From sequence record NC_027356.1: a stretch of 64,000 bases of DNA. One strand, 5' to 3'. Each line of letters opens with the position of its first letter. The first letter of the stretch is position 1. This document shows, in pieces, positions 25,998 to 40,141 of the stretch. Both the position numbers and the translations under genes were made by a program. The notes under the pieces were generated by a model that was not told the origin of the DNA, made no database searches, and saw only the letters and a program-made list of their open reading frames with translations. The stretch is from Escherichia phage DT57C.

Positions 25998-26225
25998 TTA
26001 ATCCTTATTACAAGTGGTAGAGAGGATGGTACGATCGGAGATCCAACCGCCAGTGTAAGCACCATTGACTTTATATTCAGTCAAAGTACCGTGACCACGA
26101 ATAGCGAAAACTGTTAGGGTTTTCGTGCCCCCATAACCATCTTTAACAGTTACGGTACAATCTAATGATGTGCCGATAGTGCAGCCAGCTAAAGTCAGAG
26201 CAGCAATCAATACTAAGTATTTCAT
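25998..26225 (-). CDS. Small lipoprotein
   Basis: 75-aa ORF; signal peptide with lipobox LAGC. Confidence 0.45.
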   Translation of the reverse strand: MKYLVLIAALTLAGCTIGTSLDCTVTVKDGYGGTKTLTVFAIRGHGTLTEYKVNGAYTGGWISDRTILSTTCNKD

Positions 26226-26248
26226 GTTGTTATCCTTGTTAAGTTAAT

Positions 26249-27463: not shown

Positions 27464-27540
27464 TTGGTCAGTGCGGCAGGACTCGAACCTGCGACCCGCA
27501 TCATCCGAGGGTCCCACGCTACCAACTGCGCTACACACTG
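27464..27540 (-). tRNA. tRNA (anticodon not resolved)
   Basis: Acceptor CAGTGTG/CGCACTG, T-arm GCAGG-TTCGAGT-CCTGC, D-loop AGTTGGTA, CCA encoded. Confidence 0.45.
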
Positions 27541-29013: not shown

Positions 29014-29088
29014 TGGTGGGTCGGAGGAGAATCTAACTCCTACTCGTTAGCTTATGAGGCCACCGCTTTAACTTTAAGCTACCGACCC
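29014..29088 (-). tRNA. tRNA, probable CAU anticodon (Met or Ile2)
   Basis: Perfect acceptor GGGTCGG/CCGACCC, T-arm AGGAG-TTAGATT-CTCCT, loop CU-CAU-AA. Confidence 0.5.
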
Positions 29089-29094
29089 TATGTT

Positions 29095-29183
29095 TGGCGG
29101 AAGAAGCGGGAATCGAACCCACAAGGCTATATTTCAAACCGACAGATTAGCAATCTGCTGCAATACCGTTATGCTATTCTTCC
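29095..29183 (-). tRNA. Long tRNA, probable tRNA-Ser (anticodon GCU)
   Basis: Perfect acceptor GGAAGAA/TTCTTCC, T-arm GTGGG-TTCGATT-CCCGC, loop TT-GCT-AA, long variable arm. Confidence 0.5.
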
Positions 29184-29204: not shown

Positions 29205-29741
29205 TTAGAAATTTAGCTTCATAGCAAGAAAATTTTTCAAGTTTTCGGTAGACATCTCATCCACATCTACAGGAGAAACAAACCCATCTAATTGTCTAGC
29301 AAATTTTTCACCGGCAGGATCATTATCCCCAACAGCTACCAATTTAAAAGGTAGTAATTTCAATTGCTTTAACAACGCTTTTCCGGGGGAAGAACCCAAC
29401 ATTGCTAGGGCAGGATAACCAGCATTATGTAATGCTACAGCCTTAAATACAGATTCAGCAATCAATACTACTTTTTCATCCCCATTGAGAGTTTCTAGCC
29501 CCCATACACACTGTGTGGTAGAATAAGTAAAATATCTAGCTTCAGAGGGGCACTTACCATGACCTTTTGGAGCAGAAGGATTATAAATCTGATAGCCTCT
29601 CAGCATCCCAGAGAAGTCGTACAATGGGACTGTTAGCCATCCCTCCGGGCTTAACCAGCAATGATATTTATCTGTATCAAACCCTCTGGATAAGAGATGT
29701 TCTGTTAGTTCATCAACAGTCATATTAGATTCCTCTCTCAA
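29205..29741 (-). CDS. Hypothetical protein with TOPRIM-like motifs
   Basis: 178-aa ORF; LIAESVFKA and VAVGDNDPAG resemble TOPRIM E / DxD motifs. Confidence 0.4.
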   Translation of the reverse strand: MREESNMTVDELTEHLLSRGFDTDKYHCWLSPEGWLTVPLYDFSGMLRGYQIYNPSAPKGHGKCPSEARYFTYSTTQCVWGLETLNGDEKVVLIAESVFKAVALHNAGYPALAMLGSSPGKALLKQLKLLPFKLVAVGDNDPAGEKFARQLDGFVSPVDVDEMSTENLKNFLAMKLNF

Positions 29742-29790: not shown

Positions 29791-29867
29791 TAAACTTTTT
29801 AGTGGAAAATCTCAAGACATTTAATGGCAGCACGTTGTTGCTGTAATAAGAGTATATGGTTCTAAAG

Positions 29868-29910
29868 AACCAAACAATAAAGCCCTGCGCTCTCCAGGGA
29901 ACGCAGGGCT
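29868..29910 (-). terminator. Rho-independent terminator (agccctgcg...cgcagggct)
   Basis: 9-bp stem followed on minus strand by T-rich tract. Confidence 0.55.
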
Positions 29911-29934
29911 TACTTCAGAGATTACATGCGGGTG

Positions 29935-30882
29935 TTATTTGTTACGCATGTCCATGATCATCTGGCCATCGTAACCAGTTCCCACAACTGTTTGCGGTAC
30001 ACCACCTTGATACTTCTGAGCACGAATCATTTCAACTTCTAGTTGTTTCCAACGAATCATCTCAGGAGTAATGGTACGTTGCAGAGCGGCGTTAGCCTCA
30101 GCTTCTTTCTTAGCTGCGTACAGTTTAGCATCTGCATCACGTTCGTTTGCAATAGCTTGGTTGTTACGAGCTTCACGATCTGCTTCTGCTTGTTTAACCT
30201 TCTGCTGTGCTTCTTGTTCAACACGAGCCAACTCAGCTTTCGCAGCATTAACTTGTTCTTCACGAACTTTGGTATTCTGTACCTGTTCCATGATTACAGG
30301 CGGCAAAGTAATATCCTGAAGGAACACTTGCTTAACTGTGTAACCATAAGGGCGTGCATACTCTTCAACTTCCTGTTGAATTGCAGTTTGTAATTGAGCC
30401 TGAATTTTAGCATCAAACAAATCTTGTGCTTTAGGAACAGACTTGCCGAACTCACGAATAGTAGACAGTAATTTTTCAGTTACATATTTGTCTAACGCTT
30501 GATCCTGAGTACCTGCATTAATACGGTTAATCGGTGCCTTAGAACCATCAAATTGTAACATAACAGTCAGGTCAACAGTGGATTTAAACTTATCCTGACT
30601 AGGAACCTGAAGTTTATCTAATTTTACAGCAATATCTTTTGTACTAAAAGTATCGAAAGATGCAAAGGGGTTTACAAGATGGAAGCCAGGTAATACTGGG
30701 TTAGGATCTACTTTACCAAGAAATGTTTGGGTTTTAACCGTACCATCGGAAACAATAGTATATGAATTAAAAGCTAGGATTAAACCTGCTAAACCAACTA
30801 CAGCACCAATACCCCAACGTTTAATAGTGCGCATTACTTTTTGCTCAGAAGTCAGTTCTTTCATATTTTTAGTATTAAACAT
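29935..30882 (-). CDS. SPFH/band-7 family membrane protein (HflC/prohibitin-like)
   Basis: 315-aa ORF; N-terminal TM helix, long Ala/Glu/Gln-rich coiled-coil C-terminus typical of SPFH proteins. Confidence 0.55.
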   Translation of the reverse strand: MFNTKNMKELTSEQKVMRTIKRWGIGAVVGLAGLILAFNSYTIVSDGTVKTQTFLGKVDPNPVLPGFHLVNPFASFDTFSTKDIAVKLDKLQVPSQDKFKSTVDLTVMLQFDGSKAPINRINAGTQDQALDKYVTEKLLSTIREFGKSVPKAQDLFDAKIQAQLQTAIQQEVEEYARPYGYTVKQVFLQDITLPPVIMEQVQNTKVREEQVNAAKAELARVEQEAQQKVKQAEADREARNNQAIANERDADAKLYAAKKEAEANAALQRTITPEMIRWKQLEVEMIRAQKYQGGVPQTVVGTGYDGQMIMDMRNK

Positions 30883-30916
30883 GTATTTCCTTTGTTTTAG
30901 TTACAGTTAATAAAAT

Positions 30917-30991
30917 TGGCCGAGGTGACAGGATTCGAACCTGCATAAAGGAATTTAGAAGACTCCTGCCTCTCCCTTAGACTACACCCCG
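30917..30991 (-). tRNA. tRNA, probable tRNA-Arg (anticodon UCU)
   Basis: Acceptor CGGGGTG/CACCTCG, T-arm GCAGG-TTCGAAT-CCTGT, loop CU-UCU-AA. Confidence 0.5.
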
Positions 30992-31492
30992 TTTAAGTAT
31001 TTTTAAGAACTCTCGTAAAAACTCTTAAAAATACAGACGATACCGGGAGAGTCATAAGTCTCACTCATTAAGTATTTCAAGACAAAATACAGTAACGTCT
31101 ATTATTTTCCAGTTTAAGTCAAGGTGACTTAGTGGTTATGCCCTGCGGTATACTGAGGACTCGGTTAGGCTAGGGTCATGACTCCCCGCTTTTTGCTGCT
31201 ACTCAACAGGAATTATCGCGAATTACCTGTGCTATTGTGCACCATTAGTGGCATCTCTCATGCCAGCATTTCCCACTTTGTGGATAGTTTGAAAAACTAC
31301 TCCGATATGGAGGGAGAACTTCACTATCCTAGAATACCTTCTAAAGTTCTTCTTTAGCCTGGACATAGTTAAATCGTAATAAAACTATTCAGCAGACTGG
31401 TTGATTAGCCTGGAACCAACTACCGCGTGGTTTAGGCAGTGCGCAACTAACCTCGGAAGCTTTTACGTTAAAAGCACCAGTTATCCAGCTCT

Positions 31493-31562
31493 TACCGATC
31501 GTAGGATTCGAACCTACATCTTCCACCAGTTACGGCTTGATAATACCGTTTATACTAGATCG
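31493..31562 (-). tRNA. tRNA-like (anticodon not resolved; no encoded CCA)
   Basis: Perfect T-arm GTAGG-TTCGAAT-CCTAC and acceptor GCCGATC/GATCGGT. Confidence 0.35.
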
Positions 31563-31640
31563 GCAGTGTTACTACATAAGTGATTTCCACACCCCACCAT
31601 CAATAAATTAGGGAAGAATTACTCTCTAATTTATGAATAT

Positions 31641-31669
31641 ATTATACAGAATTTATAAGCATTTAGCAA
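31641..31669 (-). promoter_or_regulatory. Sigma70-type early promoter (TTGCTA-17-TATAAT)
   Basis: -10 31641-31646, -35 31664-31669; transcribes toward tRNA-like gene and ORF-free 31000-31490. Confidence 0.55.
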
Positions 31670-31677
31670 ATGAATTT

Positions 31678-32112
31678 TTAGAAAAATTCACTAGCAATCA
31701 GAGCGGCTGTTTTACCATCATAACGCCCTGGAAACTCTGCCTTAATAGTTTTCATTAAGAGAGCTTTGGTAATACCTGGGTTTAGCTTAACCAATTCTGC
31801 AAAATATTTACGAATTTCGGTTTCAGTCAGTTGACTTGGCTGATACTCTTGCAGCATGAAATAAAGCAGTTGCTCGTAGTCTACATCAGTAGGAACTTTC
31901 GTACCAACTTTAATAGCACGCTGCTTTGCAGTTTCTAGAGCTTTAATCTGGGCTTTCAGATAAGCTACGAACTCGGTTCGAGTAACAACGTCTTTATTAA
32001 TGCGTTGCAAGTCACCAATCATAGTCTGGAGATTGATTGCCCGCTCTTTGTCACCGTGGATACGTGCTAGACTAAGCAGTCCACGAAGGGTCATTAGAAT
32101 ATTTTCACCCAT
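31678..32112 (-). CDS. Hypothetical protein
   Basis: 144-aa ORF; start overlaps stop of upstream small ORF. Confidence 0.5.
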   Translation of the reverse strand: MGENILMTLRGLLSLARIHGDKERAINLQTMIGDLQRINKDVVTRTEFVAYLKAQIKALETAKQRAIKVGTKVPTDVDYEQLLYFMLQEYQPSQLTETEIRKYFAELVKLNPGITKALLMKTIKAEFPGRYDGKTAALIASEFF

Positions 32113-32282
32113 TATTTCATCCCCAATGCTTGGTTGAAAGATTGTTCTGTCATAACTGCTGAGACTTTGGCGAAATCAAACTTTTTAGGGTTCGTAGTGA
32201 TCTCAGCAACGTTGGAAGTTTTAACAGTTTTCGTAGTACGAATACCGCGAGTGTTAACACCAATAATTACAACTGATTTCAT
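32112..32282 (-). CDS. Small hypothetical protein (~56 aa), not in ORF track
   Basis: By-eye: GGAAGCGAAAT-ATG context; MKSVVIIGVNTRGIRTTKTVKTSNVAEITTNPKKFDFAKVSAVMTEQSFNQALGMK; downstream of promoter. Confidence 0.35.
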   Translation of the reverse strand: MKSVVIIGVNTRGIRTTKTVKTSNVAEITTNPKKFDFAKVSAVMTEQSFNQALGMK

Positions 32283-32350: not shown

Positions 32351-32818
32351 TTAAGTTTTAGTGACAGCAGGCTTATAAAATGTATGTCCCTTAATCTTGG
32401 TTGTTTTCTTAAACTTCTTTGTCCAGTATGGTTTATCTTTACCACTATGGAAGTATAAGGCCCCATGTGTAGGATCTTGTGGTAAATCAACGTAGTATAT
32501 CACTCTAGCTAAATTCTTGGCGGTTTGCCAAGCCTCATCGGTTTTATCAACTTTTGGTCTCTTAGATACCCAAGAGAACTGGTTAGACTGATATACTACT
32601 TTACAGTAGGAATCTGGGAATTTACCGGAGTTTACACGGTTTTTAGTAACGTGTGCAATCGCCGTCATTCCCTTTATGCCCTCACCACGACTTTCGAAAT
32701 AGATATTTTTAGCAATGCAATCTATTTCTTTTGCATCGTGCGATGCTTGACTACTAAAGCTGAAGGTAAGGGCAGCTACTAAAAGCAAAGCTGCCTTCAT
32801 TCTTTTTACTCCTGCCAA
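32351..32818 (-). CDS. Cell wall hydrolase (SleB/CwlJ-like) with signal peptide
   Basis: 155-aa ORF; signal peptide, motif CIAKNIYFESRGEG. Confidence 0.55.
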   Translation of the reverse strand: MAGVKRMKAALLLVAALTFSFSSQASHDAKEIDCIAKNIYFESRGEGIKGMTAIAHVTKNRVNSGKFPDSYCKVVYQSNQFSWVSKRPKVDKTDEAWQTAKNLARVIYYVDLPQDPTHGALYFHSGKDKPYWTKKFKKTTKIKGHTFYKPAVTKT

Positions 32819-33123
32819 TCGTATTCAATACGATTGGGGTTTTCTTTGTATCCCAAGTCAAGCAAATCATTACGCATAGTTTGCTTAGCTACGGGATTCG
32901 AGGTTACTAGTACCACTTTCTTTGGTCTCTGCCCAAATTCTAAGAGTAAACGAAGAATTTGATAACCTTCCATACCATCTACAGCCAAATCGTTGTCGAA
33001 ATAAACAAAATGGCCAGTGGTATCAGTCTTATTCAGAAACTCAACAGCGGCTTCTGGGGTTCGAATGATAATGTCCATTCCGTGAAGATTACGCACATCA
33101 TCAATCAAAATATGAAAAGTCAT
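32806..33123 (-). CDS. Hypothetical protein
   Basis: 105-aa ORF downstream of promoter. Confidence 0.5.
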   Translation of the reverse strand: MTFHILIDDVRNLHGMDIIIRTPEAAVEFLNKTDTTGHFVYFDNDLAVDGMEGYQILRLLLEFGQRPKKVVLVTSNPVAKQTMRNDLLDLGYKENPNRIEYDWQE

Positions 33124-39625: not shown

Positions 39626-40141
39626 CTATTTATCTGTGTTTCTAAGTAGTGTTGGATCTTTGGTTATAGAGAGGATTAAAGAATCTCGATACTCTATCGC
39701 CTCTTCTAGAGTTGGAAGAGTTTTCACGTATTCTTTTCCGTTAATGGATTTTCTAACTTGAAATCCAGACCCTTTCTTCCGAATATTCTTAGTACCCAAT
39801 ATATTGTTTTTACTGGTTTTTCTATTTTGACTATTTAACTGCCAGTCTGCTTCTCTTAGATTAGTCCACTTATAGTTTAGTGGATCTCCATCTATATGGT
39901 CAACCATAACTTTGGGTAAGTTTCCTGTCATGTACAGAAAAGCAATATTTTGTGCAGGGTACTTCTTACCCTTGATTTGTATTACTAAGTCTTTTCGGTT
40001 AGGATCTACTGAGTGTGGTTTTAAACAACCAGCAGGTAGTCCTCTTACTTTATTGTGTACTTCTTGGTTATTTAACCAAGTAAATGTTCCTTCATCTGGA
40101 TTATACTCCAGAATCCTTTTTAATTCATCTTGTGTTATCAA
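39626..40141 (-). CDS. HNH homing endonuclease (AP2-like C-terminal domain), TTG start
   Basis: 171-aa ORF between nrdA and nrdB; HIDGDPLNY HNH-like motif; own promoter and AAGGAG RBS. Confidence 0.6.
   Translation of the reverse strand: MITQDELKRILEYNPDEGTFTWLNNQEVHNKVRGLPAGCLKPHSVDPNRKDLVIQIKGKKYPAQNIAFLYMTGNLPKVMVDHIDGDPLNYKWTNLREADWQLNSQNRKTSKNNILGTKNIRKKGSGFQVRKSINGKEYVKTLPTLEEAIEYRDSLILSITKDPTLLRNTDK

What the first reader, a model, noticed from the sequence alone, without database searches (positions are those of the whole stretch)
29935..30882. SPFH/band-7 (HflC/prohibitin-like) membrane protein embedded in the tRNA region
A 315-aa single-pass membrane protein with a long coiled-coil is flanked by tRNA genes and has its own terminator. 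SPFH proteins organise membrane microdomains and regulate FtsH-type proteases in bacteria; in a phage this could modulate host membrane proteolysis or superinfection exclusion.
Basis: partly seen in the sequence, partly recalled or inferred. Interest (0 to 1): 0.5.

Follow-up and report, generated by a model that had tools for sequence, protein, structure and literature searches.

The report
Phage T5-type SPFH membrane scaffold gene
This is a real, already-annotated gene (ortholog of phage T5 gene T5.080) for an inner-membrane protein of the stomatin/prohibitin/HflC (SPFH) family; many unrelated virulent phages carry it, it is dispensable in the laboratory, and nobody yet knows what it does for the phage.

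Summary
Window 29935..30882 (minus strand) encodes a 315-aa protein with one N-terminal transmembrane helix, a Pfam Band_7/SPFH domain (E=2e-17), a 76-residue helix and a conserved tail. A strong hairpin terminator follows it, and tRNA-Arg(UCU) ends 34 nt upstream. The predicted structure matches full-length erlin, prohibitin, HflK/C, stomatin and QmcA cage subunits (Foldseek E down to 3e-14).

The window is 99.8% identical to phage DT571/2, and the gene is the ortholog of T5.080. Several GenBank records already call it SPFH/Band 7, and its T4-like homologs were listed as SPFH in 2006.

What this work adds:
- The RefSeq/PHROG label "lipoprotein" is wrong, because the protein has no cysteine.
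- The gene is a single-gene cassette shared at 75-80% amino-acid identity among T5-like, T4-like, 7-11-like and other virulent phages.
- It is under strong purifying selection (dN/dS 0.02-0.09), yet it scored "Not Fit" in a T5 knock-down screen and is naturally missing from NG_S8 and BF23.
- It is single-copy with no NfeD partner, and charge bias predicts a periplasmic dome.
- It abuts the anti-retron gene rad.

Function remains inferred: probably a homo-oligomeric membrane cage. The identification is ordinary, and the biology is modestly interesting.

The parts
29935..30882 (-). CDS for the 315-aa SPFH/Band 7 protein (ortholog of T5.080, PhiSP15 ORF78, DT571/2 gp126). The stop codon is at 29935-29937.
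   Evidence: ORF listed. Pfam Band_7 64.2 bits. PHROG_200 at 5.6e-87. 100% identical to the DT571/2 protein and 99% to PhiSP15 ORF78.
30757..30813 (-). Codons for the single N-terminal transmembrane segment (about residues 24-42). It is preceded by a K/R-rich N-terminus (residues 1-23: 6 K/R against 2 D/E).
   Evidence: Hydropathy maximum 1.8-1.9 at residues 25-44. AlphaFold2 helix at 12-39. Positive-inside bias holds in 26 of 29 family members.
30307..30762 (-). SPFH alpha/beta domain (residues 41-192), including the invariant VPSQDK motif (residues 93-98).
   Evidence: Pfam match covers residues 52-225. Model strands and helices span 41-192. Invariant columns from alignment A1. Foldseek hits to stomatin SPFH crystal structures.
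30073..30300 (-). Long helix (residues 195-270), equivalent to the CC1 wall helix of SPFH cages.
   Evidence: Continuous helix in the model with pLDDT 75-89. Aligns with the helical region of QmcA and prohibitin-2.
30013..30066 (-). Second helix (residues 273-290), containing the conserved TITPEMIRWK motif. It is equivalent to CC2.
   Evidence: Model. T270, T272 and L281 are invariant and W278 is nearly invariant.
29938..30012 (-). C-terminal tail (residues 291-315), disordered in the monomer model but conserved (Y291, G293, P296, T298, G301, D311, R313 at 90% or more). It is a candidate oligomer-cap or partner-binding segment.
   Evidence: pLDDT below 50. Conservation. The proposed role is inference by analogy with SPFH cage caps.
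30888..30892 (-). Shine-Dalgarno sequence AAGGA, 5 nt upstream of the ATG.
   Evidence: Read directly from the sequence.
30917..30991 (-). tRNA-Arg(UCU), ending 34 nt upstream of the SPFH start codon with no promoter-like site in between. It is probably co-transcribed with the SPFH gene.
   Evidence: ARAGORN. Rfam tRNA 49.3 bits. Promoter scan. Same arrangement annotated in T5.
30992..31627 (-). Leader region annotated in DT571/2 and T5 as 'RNAX, stable RNA with unknown functions'. It contains a tRNA-like element at 31493..31564.
   Evidence: Annotation transferred from NC_047749 (offset 24999). Rfam tRNA 39 bits. ARAGORN calls it tRNA-Ser(act).
31641..31669 (-). Sigma-70-type promoter-like site (TTGCTA, 17-nt spacer, TATAAT), at the position of T5 early promoter P16-17. 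It is the likely start of the RNAX, tRNA-Arg, SPFH transcription unit.
   Evidence: Promoter scan scoring 10 of 12. T5 annotates promoter P16-17 at the equivalent place. The scan alone is not above shuffle expectation, so the assignment rests on the T5 annotation.
29870..29911 (-). Intrinsic-terminator-like hairpin (13-bp stem, 8 G-C pairs, 6-nt loop) followed by TTATTGTTT, 23 nt after the stop codon.
   Evidence: Terminator scan. Folding energy -26.7 kcal/mol, z=-3.3. Conserved in T5 and NG_S8.

Best explanation
SHOWN. The gene encodes a single-copy inner-membrane protein of the SPFH (stomatin/prohibitin/flotillin/HflK-C) superfamily. Its layout is an N-terminal TM helix, an SPFH domain, a long helix, a second helix and a conserved tail. 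It sits in an early-type transcription unit (sigma-70 promoter, RNAX, tRNA-Arg, SPFH gene, terminator) in the tRNA/accessory region of a T5-like phage, next to the anti-retron gene rad. It is an accessory gene: dispensable in the laboratory and lost in some relatives, yet under strong purifying selection. It has moved as a single-gene cassette between unrelated virulent phages.

INFERRED. Like every structurally characterised full-length SPFH protein, it most likely homo-oligomerises through its long helices and C-terminal tail into a ring or dome anchored by its TM helices. Charge bias predicts N-in/C-out, so the dome would sit on the periplasmic face of the host inner membrane, as in HflK/C, prohibitin and erlin. 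It would enclose a patch of membrane. The most likely benefit is to keep the infected cell's inner membrane and its enclosed client proteins functional or insulated during the infection cycle. This would be a conditionally useful membrane-homeostasis device. The client is unknown.
For: Identity and fold:
- Pfam Band_7 E=2e-17.
- Family profile against the PDB: PHB2 2e-14, QmcA 2e-13, HflC 5e-12.
- AlphaFold2 model with pLDDT 75 and the canonical element order.
- Foldseek full-length matches to erlin, prohibitin, HflK/C, stomatin, QmcA and flotillin cage subunits.

Homo-oligomer expected:
- No second SPFH gene in the window and one place per phage record.
- The tail is disordered in the monomer model yet conserved.

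Periplasmic orientation:
- K+R count is 3.3 on the N-side of the TM against 1.3 on the C-side, in 26 of 29 homologs.

Transcription unit:
-.

Accessory but functional:
- T5.080 scored 'Not Fit' in the CRISPRi-ART screen (PMC11879866, supplementary file 16).
- NG_S8 keeps only the last 42 codons.
- The gene is absent from BF23 (PMC12752171).
- dN/dS is 0.016-0.085.

Cassette transfer:
- 75-80% amino-acid identity between T5-like, T4-like, 7-11-like and a 153-kb phage.
- In a 5-kb stretch of the 153-kb phage, only this gene matches other phages.

Accessory/counter-defence neighbourhood:
- The downstream ORF is 94% identical to PhiSP15 ORF75 = Rad.
Against: - No oligomer was predicted or observed here; cage formation is by analogy only.
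- Orientation rests on the positive-inside rule alone. QmcA, the second-best sequence match, faces the cytoplasm.
- No client, partner or phenotype is known. Knock-down has no fitness effect in standard conditions.
- No partner gene is conserved across backbones.
- The 'membrane homeostasis' benefit is the least specific of the possible roles and has no direct evidence.
Confidence: 0.55

Rival explanations
1. HflK/C mimic. The phage cage traps or shields the host FtsH protease in the inner membrane and so changes the turnover of host or phage membrane proteins.
For: HflK/C-FtsH structures are among the top fold matches (7vhq, 7wi3, 9cz2). HflC matches the family profile at 5e-12. The predicted periplasmic orientation equals that of HflK/C.
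Against: There is no NCBIfam HflK/HflC match. The protein is no closer to HflC than to prohibitin or QmcA. It is a single gene, not a K/C pair. The chromosomal relatives have no ftsH or hfl genes nearby. No virulent-phage process is known to depend on FtsH (own knowledge).
Confidence: 0.12
2. Lysis-timing device. The periplasm-facing cage corrals or insulates lysis proteins (holin, antiholin or a secreted wall hydrolase) and so tunes when lysis occurs.
For: The only neighbour family shared across unrelated backbones is a signal-peptide SleB-like cell-wall hydrolase (PF07486). It lies within 0.4-2 kb in T5-likes, in a 153-kb phage and a 24-kb contig, and in 90-kb 7-11-like phages. In enterobacterial T4-likes the gene lies two genes after the RI antiholin (PF24205).
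Against: The linkage is partial. The hydrolase is absent near the T4-like, 85-, 45- and 78-kb phage copies and near all chromosomal copies. NG_S8 keeps the hydrolase but lost the SPFH gene. In Aeromonas T4-likes rI is about 3 kb away on the other side. All these regions are hypervariable accessory regions. T5.083 itself is also 'Not Fit'.
Confidence: 0.12
3. Counter-defence or protection against membrane-targeting abortive-infection effectors. The scaffold stabilises the membrane against pore-forming defence effectors.
For: The gene abuts rad and the tRNA 'Anti-Defense Island' of T5-like phages (10.1101/2023.03.15.532788). It shows a typical accessory-gene pattern: dispensable in a defence-poor lab host, patchy presence, and horizontal spread among virulent phages.
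Against: The anti-retron paper does not mention it or attribute any activity to it. In PhiSP15 it lies beyond rad and ORF76-77, so possibly outside the 8-kb deletion. It has no PADLOC or anti-defence family match. No mechanism is known by which an SPFH cage blocks an effector.
Confidence: 0.1
4. Superinfection exclusion. The periplasmic assembly blocks DNA entry by later-arriving phages.
For: The protein is early-expressed, membrane-located and predicted to face the periplasm. The same tRNA region of DT571/2 carries a Cor-like exclusion gene.
Against: There is no similarity to known exclusion proteins (Imm, Sp, Llp, Cor). No SPFH protein is known to do this. Related genes are kept as ordinary chromosomal genes in Morganella, Providencia and methylotrophs, which argues for a general cell-biological role.
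Confidence: 0.07
5. The database labels are right: it is a lipoprotein (RefSeq/PHROG_200 name) or a membrane protease (note in the DT571/2 record).
For: PHROG_200 is named 'lipoprotein'. RefSeq uses that product name. There is a weak hit to phrog_11227 'protease' at E=0.0011, in the coiled-coil region.
Against: The protein has no cysteine at all, so no lipobox is possible, and most homologs also have none. The only Pfam domain is Band_7, with no peptidase domain. The 'protease' wording probably comes from the old family name 'membrane protease subunits, stomatin/prohibitin homologs' (own knowledge).
Confidence: 0.01

Closest known systems
T5.080 of Escherichia phage T5 (YP_006908) and the PHROG_200 family, including RB43ORF139c, 44RRORF098c and Aeh1ORF064c of T4-like phages
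   Same: It is the same gene. It is 99% identical to T5 and PhiSP15 ORF78, 100% to DT571/2, and 75-80% to enterobacterial T4-like homologs. In T5-likes it has the same position after tRNA-Arg and RNAX.
   Different: Nothing material differs. In this window (as in DT571/2) the three plus-strand genes T5.077-079 and T5's second terminator hairpin are missing, so the gene directly abuts rad.
Prohibitin (PHB1/PHB2) complex of mitochondria
   Same: It is the best profile match (PHB2 2e-14) and a top fold match. The protein has the same length class (about 270-315 aa) and the same order of elements (N-terminal anchor, SPFH domain, long helix, C-terminal segment). The predicted orientation is equivalent: the matrix and intermembrane-space sides correspond to the cytoplasm and periplasm.
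   Different: Sequence identity is only about 15-25%. Prohibitin is a PHB1/PHB2 hetero-oligomer, whereas here there is one gene. No m-AAA-type partner is implied.
E. coli HflK/HflC-FtsH complex
   Same: It shares the SPFH fold, a single N-terminal TM helix, a predicted periplasmic dome, and the long helical wall region.
   Different: It is not an ortholog: there is no NCBIfam hit and HflC matches only at 5e-12 with two partial stretches. It lacks the HflK/HflC gene pair. HflK/C are larger (334-419 aa). FtsH binding is untested.
E. coli QmcA-YbbJ (SPFH-NfeD pair)
   Same: It is the best single-sequence PDB hit (8z5g, 1.8e-6, residues 42-266) and a homo-oligomeric cage made from one SPFH gene.
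   Different: There is no NfeD partner gene next to the phage gene or next to its chromosomal relatives. QmcA faces the cytoplasm (own knowledge), whereas charge bias here predicts the periplasm.
Stand-alone chromosomal SPFH genes of Morganella/Providencia and of methylotrophic or marine Gammaproteobacteria
   Same: They belong to the same subfamily: 57-62% identity for Morganellaceae and 33-41% for the methylotrophs. They share the same length, the VPSQDK motif and single-gene organisation.
   Different: They lie in ordinary chromosomal contexts: after a quinone oxidoreductase and before a microcin-export locus in Morganella, and between folC and an FAD oxidoreductase in Methylophagaceae. In a rough NJ tree the Morganellaceae copies nest inside the phage clade.

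Membership tests
SPFH / Band 7 superfamily (Pfam PF01145) | Match to the Band_7 profile above the curated gathering score | tested here: met
   64.2 bits against a cut-off of 23.6, E=2e-17, residues 52-225. All ten distant relatives tested also match.
SPFH / Band 7 superfamily (Pfam PF01145) | SPFH alpha/beta fold followed by long C-terminal helices | tested here: met
   AlphaFold2 model with pLDDT 75. Foldseek probability 1.00 to erlin, prohibitin, HflK/C, stomatin, QmcA, flotillin and the major vault protein.
SPFH / Band 7 superfamily (Pfam PF01145) | Membrane anchoring at the N-terminus | tested here: met
   One hydrophobic segment at about residues 24-44, with a model helix at 12-39.
SPFH / Band 7 superfamily (Pfam PF01145) | Assembly into a large ring or cage oligomer | not testable with these tools
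   Only monomer prediction was available. The inference rests on analogy and on the conserved tail that is disordered in the monomer model.
HflK/HflC modulators of FtsH | Orthology to HflK or HflC (NCBIfam equivalog models) | tested here: not met
   No NCBIfam family matched at E<=0.1. HflC is only the third-ranked family by profile.
HflK/HflC modulators of FtsH | Two paralogous subunits encoded together | tested here: not met
   Only a self-hit in tblastn against the window. One place per phage record.
HflK/HflC modulators of FtsH | Type II topology with the SPFH domain in the periplasm | tested here: inconclusive
   The positive-inside rule favours N-in/C-out in 26 of 29 homologs. No experimental or dedicated topology predictor was used.
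HflK/HflC modulators of FtsH | Physical enclosure or binding of FtsH | not testable with these tools
   This needs co-purification or a structure.
Prohibitin family | Closest sequence-profile relationship and prohibitin-like architecture | tested here: inconclusive
   PHB2 is the best profile hit (2e-14), but QmcA (2e-13) and HflC (5e-12) are nearly equal. The clade is a separate subfamily.
Stomatin/QmcA-type SPFH-NfeD operons | Adjacent NfeD-family partner gene | tested here: not met
   The neighbours are tRNA-Arg/RNAX, a YqeY-like protein, DUF7616 and Rad(Toprim). None was seen next to the chromosomal relatives either (by inspection).
Bacterial lipoprotein (RefSeq and PHROG_200 label) | Lipobox with an invariant cysteine after the signal peptide | tested here: not met
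   The protein has zero cysteines, and 26 of 29 homologs also have none.
PHROG_200 (phage protein family) | Full-length match to the family profile | tested here: met
   E=5.6e-87, residues 5-314.
Known anti-phage defence or anti-defence proteins | Match to a PADLOC model | tested here: not met
   No PADLOC hit at E<=0.1.

The most novel reading that the evidence does not exclude
The phage protein builds a virus-encoded SPFH nanocompartment on the periplasmic face of the host inner membrane, with a specific client. Candidate clients are FtsH, a holin/antiholin, the co-occurring secreted SleB-like hydrolase, or a membrane-acting defence effector. It would then act as a conditionally essential lysis-timing or counter-defence device. 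Such a role would explain why a gene that is dispensable in the lab is so strongly conserved and so often exchanged between unrelated virulent phages.
Probability: 0.25. Interest if true: 0.65.

Novelty: already known. Interest (0 to 1): 0.3.

Why it matters
SPFH cages (HflK/C, prohibitin, erlin, stomatin, flotillin) have only recently been understood structurally as membrane-enclosing domes. Why viruses encode them is still unanswered: a 2026 paper says the reason "remains unclear" (PMC13239085).

This clade is a good entry point for four reasons. It is in the model phage T5. It is single-gene. It is under strong purifying selection yet non-essential in the lab. It has been exchanged between at least six unrelated lineages of virulent phages.

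On the practical side, the analysis shows that the widely propagated product name "lipoprotein" is wrong and should read "SPFH domain-containing membrane protein". As a finding from the scan, however, it rediscovers an annotated gene.

Tried and rejected
- NCBIfam and PADLOC scans of the protein gave nothing.
- A full-text search for 'T5.080' found no paper. Searches for phage-encoded SPFH function found only genome-description papers that call the role unknown.
- The search for related loci with the divergent alignment A3 failed because no stretch was conserved enough. It was repeated with A1.
- The afdb50 fold library was not available.
- An all-vs-all neighbour comparison across 14 phage and 6 chromosomal loci was run to find a conserved partner gene. 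Apart from T4-like internal synteny and antisense shadow ORFs, it gave only the partially linked SleB-like hydrolase. No NfeD, FtsH, holin or protease partner was found.
- A prophage origin for the Morganella and Methylophagaceae copies was rejected, because the flanks are housekeeping genes.
- The 'lipoprotein' and 'membrane protease' labels were rejected.
- A decaying passenger gene was rejected on dN/dS.
- Recent import into T5-likes was not supported by composition: GC is 0.396 against 0.391 for the window.
- The anti-retron paper does not say whether its 8-kb island deletion reaches this gene.
Full report
WHERE WE ARE. The 3.2-kb stretch around the finding is 99.8% identical to Escherichia phage DT571/2 (Tequintavirus, Demerecviridae) and 93-95% identical to many other T5-like phages. 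In T5 itself it is T5.080, and in PhiSP15 it is ORF78 at 99% identity.

THE OBSERVATION. The ORF at 29935..30882 (minus strand, 315 aa) exists as stated. An AAGGA Shine-Dalgarno sequence lies 5 nt before the ATG. tRNA-Arg(UCU) at 30917..30991 ends 34 nt upstream, with no promoter-like site in between. Twenty-three nucleotides after the stop codon there is a 13-bp, G+C-rich hairpin followed by TTATTGTTT. It folds at -26.7 kcal/mol, z=-3.3 against shuffles.

The downstream neighbour is not a tRNA. It is a 178-aa Toprim ORF at 29205..29741 with its own promoter-like site, and the next tRNAs (29014..29183) lie beyond it.

In T5 the annotated elements are early promoter P16-17, then RNAX ('stable RNA with unknown functions'), tRNA-Arg, T5.080 and a terminator. 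The window has a TTGCTA-17-TATAAT site at the P16-17 position, 31669..31641. So the gene is most simply read as the only protein-coding part of an early transcription unit that it shares with a tRNA and RNAX. Co-transcription is inferred, not shown.

WHAT THE PROTEIN IS. The only significant Pfam family is Band_7/SPFH (PF01145, E=2e-17, 64.2 bits against a cut-off of 23.6). PHROGs places it full-length in phrog_200 (E=5.6e-87). As a single sequence it hits E. coli QmcA (1.8e-6) and human prohibitin-2 (7.5e-5) in the PDB. A profile built from 31 family members gives prohibitin-2 2e-14, QmcA 2e-13, prohibitin-1 4e-12, HflC 5e-12 and stomatin about 1e-5.

An AlphaFold2 model built on a 29-sequence alignment (mean pLDDT 75) has these elements:
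- helix 12-39, the membrane anchor;
- an alpha/beta domain at 41-192;
- one continuous helix at 195-270;
- a second helix at 273-290;
- a low-confidence tail at 291-315.

Foldseek against the PDB returns only SPFH cage subunits at the top, aligned over about 270-320 columns: erlin1/2 3e-14, prohibitin 4.5e-13, HflK/C 5e-12, stomatin, QmcA 2.6e-10, flotillin and the major vault protein.

The protein has no cysteine, so the 'lipoprotein' label propagated from PHROG_200 into RefSeq cannot be right. It has no peptidase domain either, so 'membrane protease' is also a misnomer.

WHICH SPFH PROTEIN IT IS NOT. No NCBIfam model matches, including those for HflK, HflC and the other named bacterial SPFH proteins. 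No PADLOC defence model matches. The gene is single-copy in the window and occurs at one place per phage record, unlike the HflK/HflC or PHB1/PHB2 pairs. No NfeD-type partner lies beside it: the upstream genes are a YqeY-like protein and DUF7616, and the downstream gene is a Toprim protein. None of 5,426 complete E. coli genomes has a DNA match at blastn sensitivity, so the host has no close homolog and E. coli prophages do not carry the gene.

DISTRIBUTION AND EVOLUTION. tblastn finds the protein in 740 of 50,697 phage records:
- T5-like phages at 90-100% identity;
- enterobacterial T4-like phages (RB43, Miller, Lw1, Miro, GAP161, Karam- and Slopekviruses) at 74-80%;
- Proteus phages and 7-11-like phages at 72-76%;
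- Aeromonas T4-likes at about 60%;
- Vibrio and other phages at about 23-34%.

IMG/VR adds a 153-kb phage (77%) and contigs of 85, 45 and 78 kb (54%, 48% and 35%). In a 5-kb stretch of the 153-kb phage, only the SPFH gene itself matches other phages, at about 75% DNA identity to T4-likes and to an 84-kb siphovirus. The gene has therefore moved as a single cassette.

An exhaustive HMMER scan of 1.84 billion representatives gives only 962 relatives at E<=1e-3 and 36 at E<=1e-30. This is a narrow clade of a very large superfamily.

In GTDB species representatives the relatives fall into two groups. Chromosomal genes of Morganella and Providencia are 57-59% identical. Genes of methylotrophic and marine Gammaproteobacteria, plus a few others, are 31-41% identical. 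Their contexts are housekeeping genes, not prophages, and contain no ftsH, hfl or nfeD genes.

In a rough NJ tree the phage copies form one clade with the Morganellaceae genes nested inside it, and the methylotroph genes form the sister group. This suggests a gammaproteobacterial origin and a later phage-to-Morganellaceae transfer. The tree is crude and this is a suggestion only.

IS IT FUNCTIONAL AND IS IT NEEDED? dN/dS against other T5-like orthologs is 0.016-0.085, with dS between 0.2 and 1.0. Against a T4-like homolog it is 0.07. That is strong purifying selection. The gene's GC content equals that of the window.

Three lines show it is dispensable. In the genome-wide CRISPRi-ART knock-down screen of T5, T5.080 is 'Not Fit' (PMC11879866, supplementary file 16). 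The Epseptimavirus NG_S8 retains only the last 42 codons. BF23 lacks the gene (PMC12752171). It is thus a conserved accessory gene whose benefit is not visible under standard laboratory conditions.

CONTEXT CLUES. I compared all ORFs within 6 kb of the gene in 14 phage loci (at least 8 backbones) and 6 chromosomal loci. Apart from synteny within T4-likes and antisense shadow ORFs, only one neighbour family crosses backbones. It is a small SleB-like cell-wall hydrolase (PF07486), which carries an N-terminal signal-peptide-like segment in the T5-like and 153-kb/24-kb versions. It is found in these places:
- 1.5-2 kb upstream in T5-likes (T5.083; window 32351..32818);
- 0.4 kb downstream in the 153-kb phage and the 24-kb contig;
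- 0.7-1 kb downstream in two 90-kb 7-11-like phages.

It is absent near all other copies, and NG_S8 keeps it without the SPFH gene.

In the T4-like phage Miro the order is RI antiholin (PF24205), DUF5856, SPFH, then a NadR-like enzyme. In Aeromonas T4-likes the same rI pair lies about 3 kb away on the other side. These two loose associations with periplasm-acting lysis proteins are a lead, not evidence.

Separately, the downstream ORF in this window is 94% identical to PhiSP15 ORF75. That ORF is Rad, the anti-retron nuclease of the spontaneously deletable 8-kb 'Anti-Defense Island' in the T5 tRNA region (10.1101/2023.03.15.532788). The SPFH gene lies just past it. That paper does not mention the SPFH gene.

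MECHANISM (INFERENCE). Every full-length SPFH protein with a solved structure forms a ring or dome that encloses a patch of membrane. The phage protein has all the corresponding elements, at similar lengths. Its tail is poorly modelled in the monomer but has seven positions conserved at 90% or more, as expected for a segment that orders only in an oligomer or with a partner.

The N-terminus carries on average 3.3 K/R in the 15 residues before the TM helix, against 1.3 after it, in 26 of 29 homologs. This predicts an N-in/C-out topology, meaning a periplasmic dome as in HflK/C, prohibitin and erlin, and not a cytoplasmic one as in QmcA.

My best reading is a homo-oligomeric, periplasm-facing cage made early in infection that insulates or stabilises part of the inner membrane. 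Which client it encloses cannot be decided here. Candidates are FtsH, lysis proteins, a defence effector, or none.

PRIOR KNOWLEDGE AND NOVELTY.
- SPFH Pfam hits for RB43ORF139c, 44RRORF098c and Aeh1ORF064c were tabulated in 2006 (PMC1524935).
- The T5 record already notes similarity of T5.080 to the latter two.
- Several T5-like records call the gene 'SPFH domain / Band 7 family protein'.
- BFVD shows SPFH folds in Vibrio, Rhizobium and Streptomyces phages and in many giant viruses.
- Papers from 2025-2026 still state that the function is unknown (PMC12752171, PMC13239085).

The finding is therefore an already known, correctly recognised gene. The open question is its role.

VERDICT. The functional speculation is untested. 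Novelty is 'already known', and interest is modest at 0.3.

Noticed in passing
window 29880..29911 (minus strand); T5 NC_005859 39746/39747: The hairpin after the SPFH gene contains GA^GCGC in its 3' arm. By my position counting on the alignment, this is exactly where the T5 record annotates a 'major DNA single-chain interruption' (consensus Pu^GCGC). The gene's terminator hairpin and one of the classic T5 nick sites therefore coincide.
   Followed up: partly
window about 29865..29880, compared with T5 39678..39720 (L002 9679..9721): T5's annotated 'efficient bidirectional rho-independent terminator' is a second hairpin that is missing from the window (a 51-nt gap in alignment A2). The three plus-strand genes T5.077-079 are absent too, so here the SPFH gene directly abuts the rad homolog.
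   Followed up: partly
window 29205..29741 (minus strand): This 178-aa Toprim-only protein (T5.076 ortholog, RefSeq label 'DNA primase') is 94% identical to PhiSP15 ORF75 = Rad, the anti-retron protein that degrades retron ncRNA. It also hits a PADLOC DRT 'RTasDnaG-like' model (1e-6) and was 'Semi-Fit' in the T5 CRISPRi-ART screen.
   Followed up: yes
window 30992..31627, especially 31493..31564 (minus strand): The region annotated in T5 and DT571/2 as RNAX, 'stable RNA with unknown functions', contains an element that passes the Rfam tRNA gathering score (39 bits). ARAGORN calls it tRNA-Ser with the unusual anticodon ACT. It is not annotated as a tRNA in the reference records.
   Followed up: partly
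window 32351..32818 (minus strand): A SleB-like cell-wall hydrolase (PF07486, T5.083 ortholog) has a signal-peptide-like N-terminus (MKAALLLVAALTFSFSSQASH). It lies in the early/accessory region and is distinct from the canonical T5 endolysin. It is the only neighbour family that recurs near the SPFH gene in unrelated phage backbones, and it scored 'Not Fit' in T5.
   Followed up: partly
window 32806..33123 (minus strand): The T5.084 ortholog matches Pfam cREC_REC, the 'cyclic-phosphate processing receiver domain' (E=9e-15). This domain is linked to RNA repair and processing systems, and here it sits at the edge of the tRNA region.
   Followed up: no
window 31678..32112 and 32112..32282 (minus strand): The T5.081 ortholog has only a weak, sub-threshold YqeY/GatB-like match (E=5e-4), so the RefSeq name 'tRNA amidotransferase' is thinly supported. 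T5.082 is DUF7616.
   Followed up: no
L007-L019 (Morganella and Providencia chromosomes), e.g. L018 5968..6939: Thirteen Morganella and Providencia species representatives carry a chromosomal copy (57-59% identical) in a non-prophage context. In a rough NJ tree these copies nest inside the phage clade, which suggests phage-to-host capture and domestication.
   Followed up: partly
L006 (Flagellimonas marina contig, 178,077 bp); P0028 ('Klebsiella pneumoniae plasmid', 174 kb); P0057 (Enterobacter asburiae, 177 kb): Several 'bacterial' or 'plasmid' records that carry a 73-79% identical copy are contigs of 174-178 kb. They are most likely T4-like phage genomes mislabelled as, or contaminating, bacterial assemblies.
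   Followed up: no
window 29014..29088 and 27465..27540 (minus strand): ARAGORN labels differ from the curated annotation. The CAU-anticodon 'tRNA-Met' at 29014 is annotated tRNA-Ile(CAU) (Ile2) in DT571/2 and T5. tRNA-Pro is called cgg here but UGG in the DT571/2 record.
   Followed up: no
window about 26010..26237 (DT571/2 gp132, from the L001 annotation): The same tRNA region carries a small gene annotated as a Cor-like superinfection-exclusion protein ('low homology'). This shows that membrane and exclusion-type accessory genes cluster among the tRNAs.
   Followed up: no
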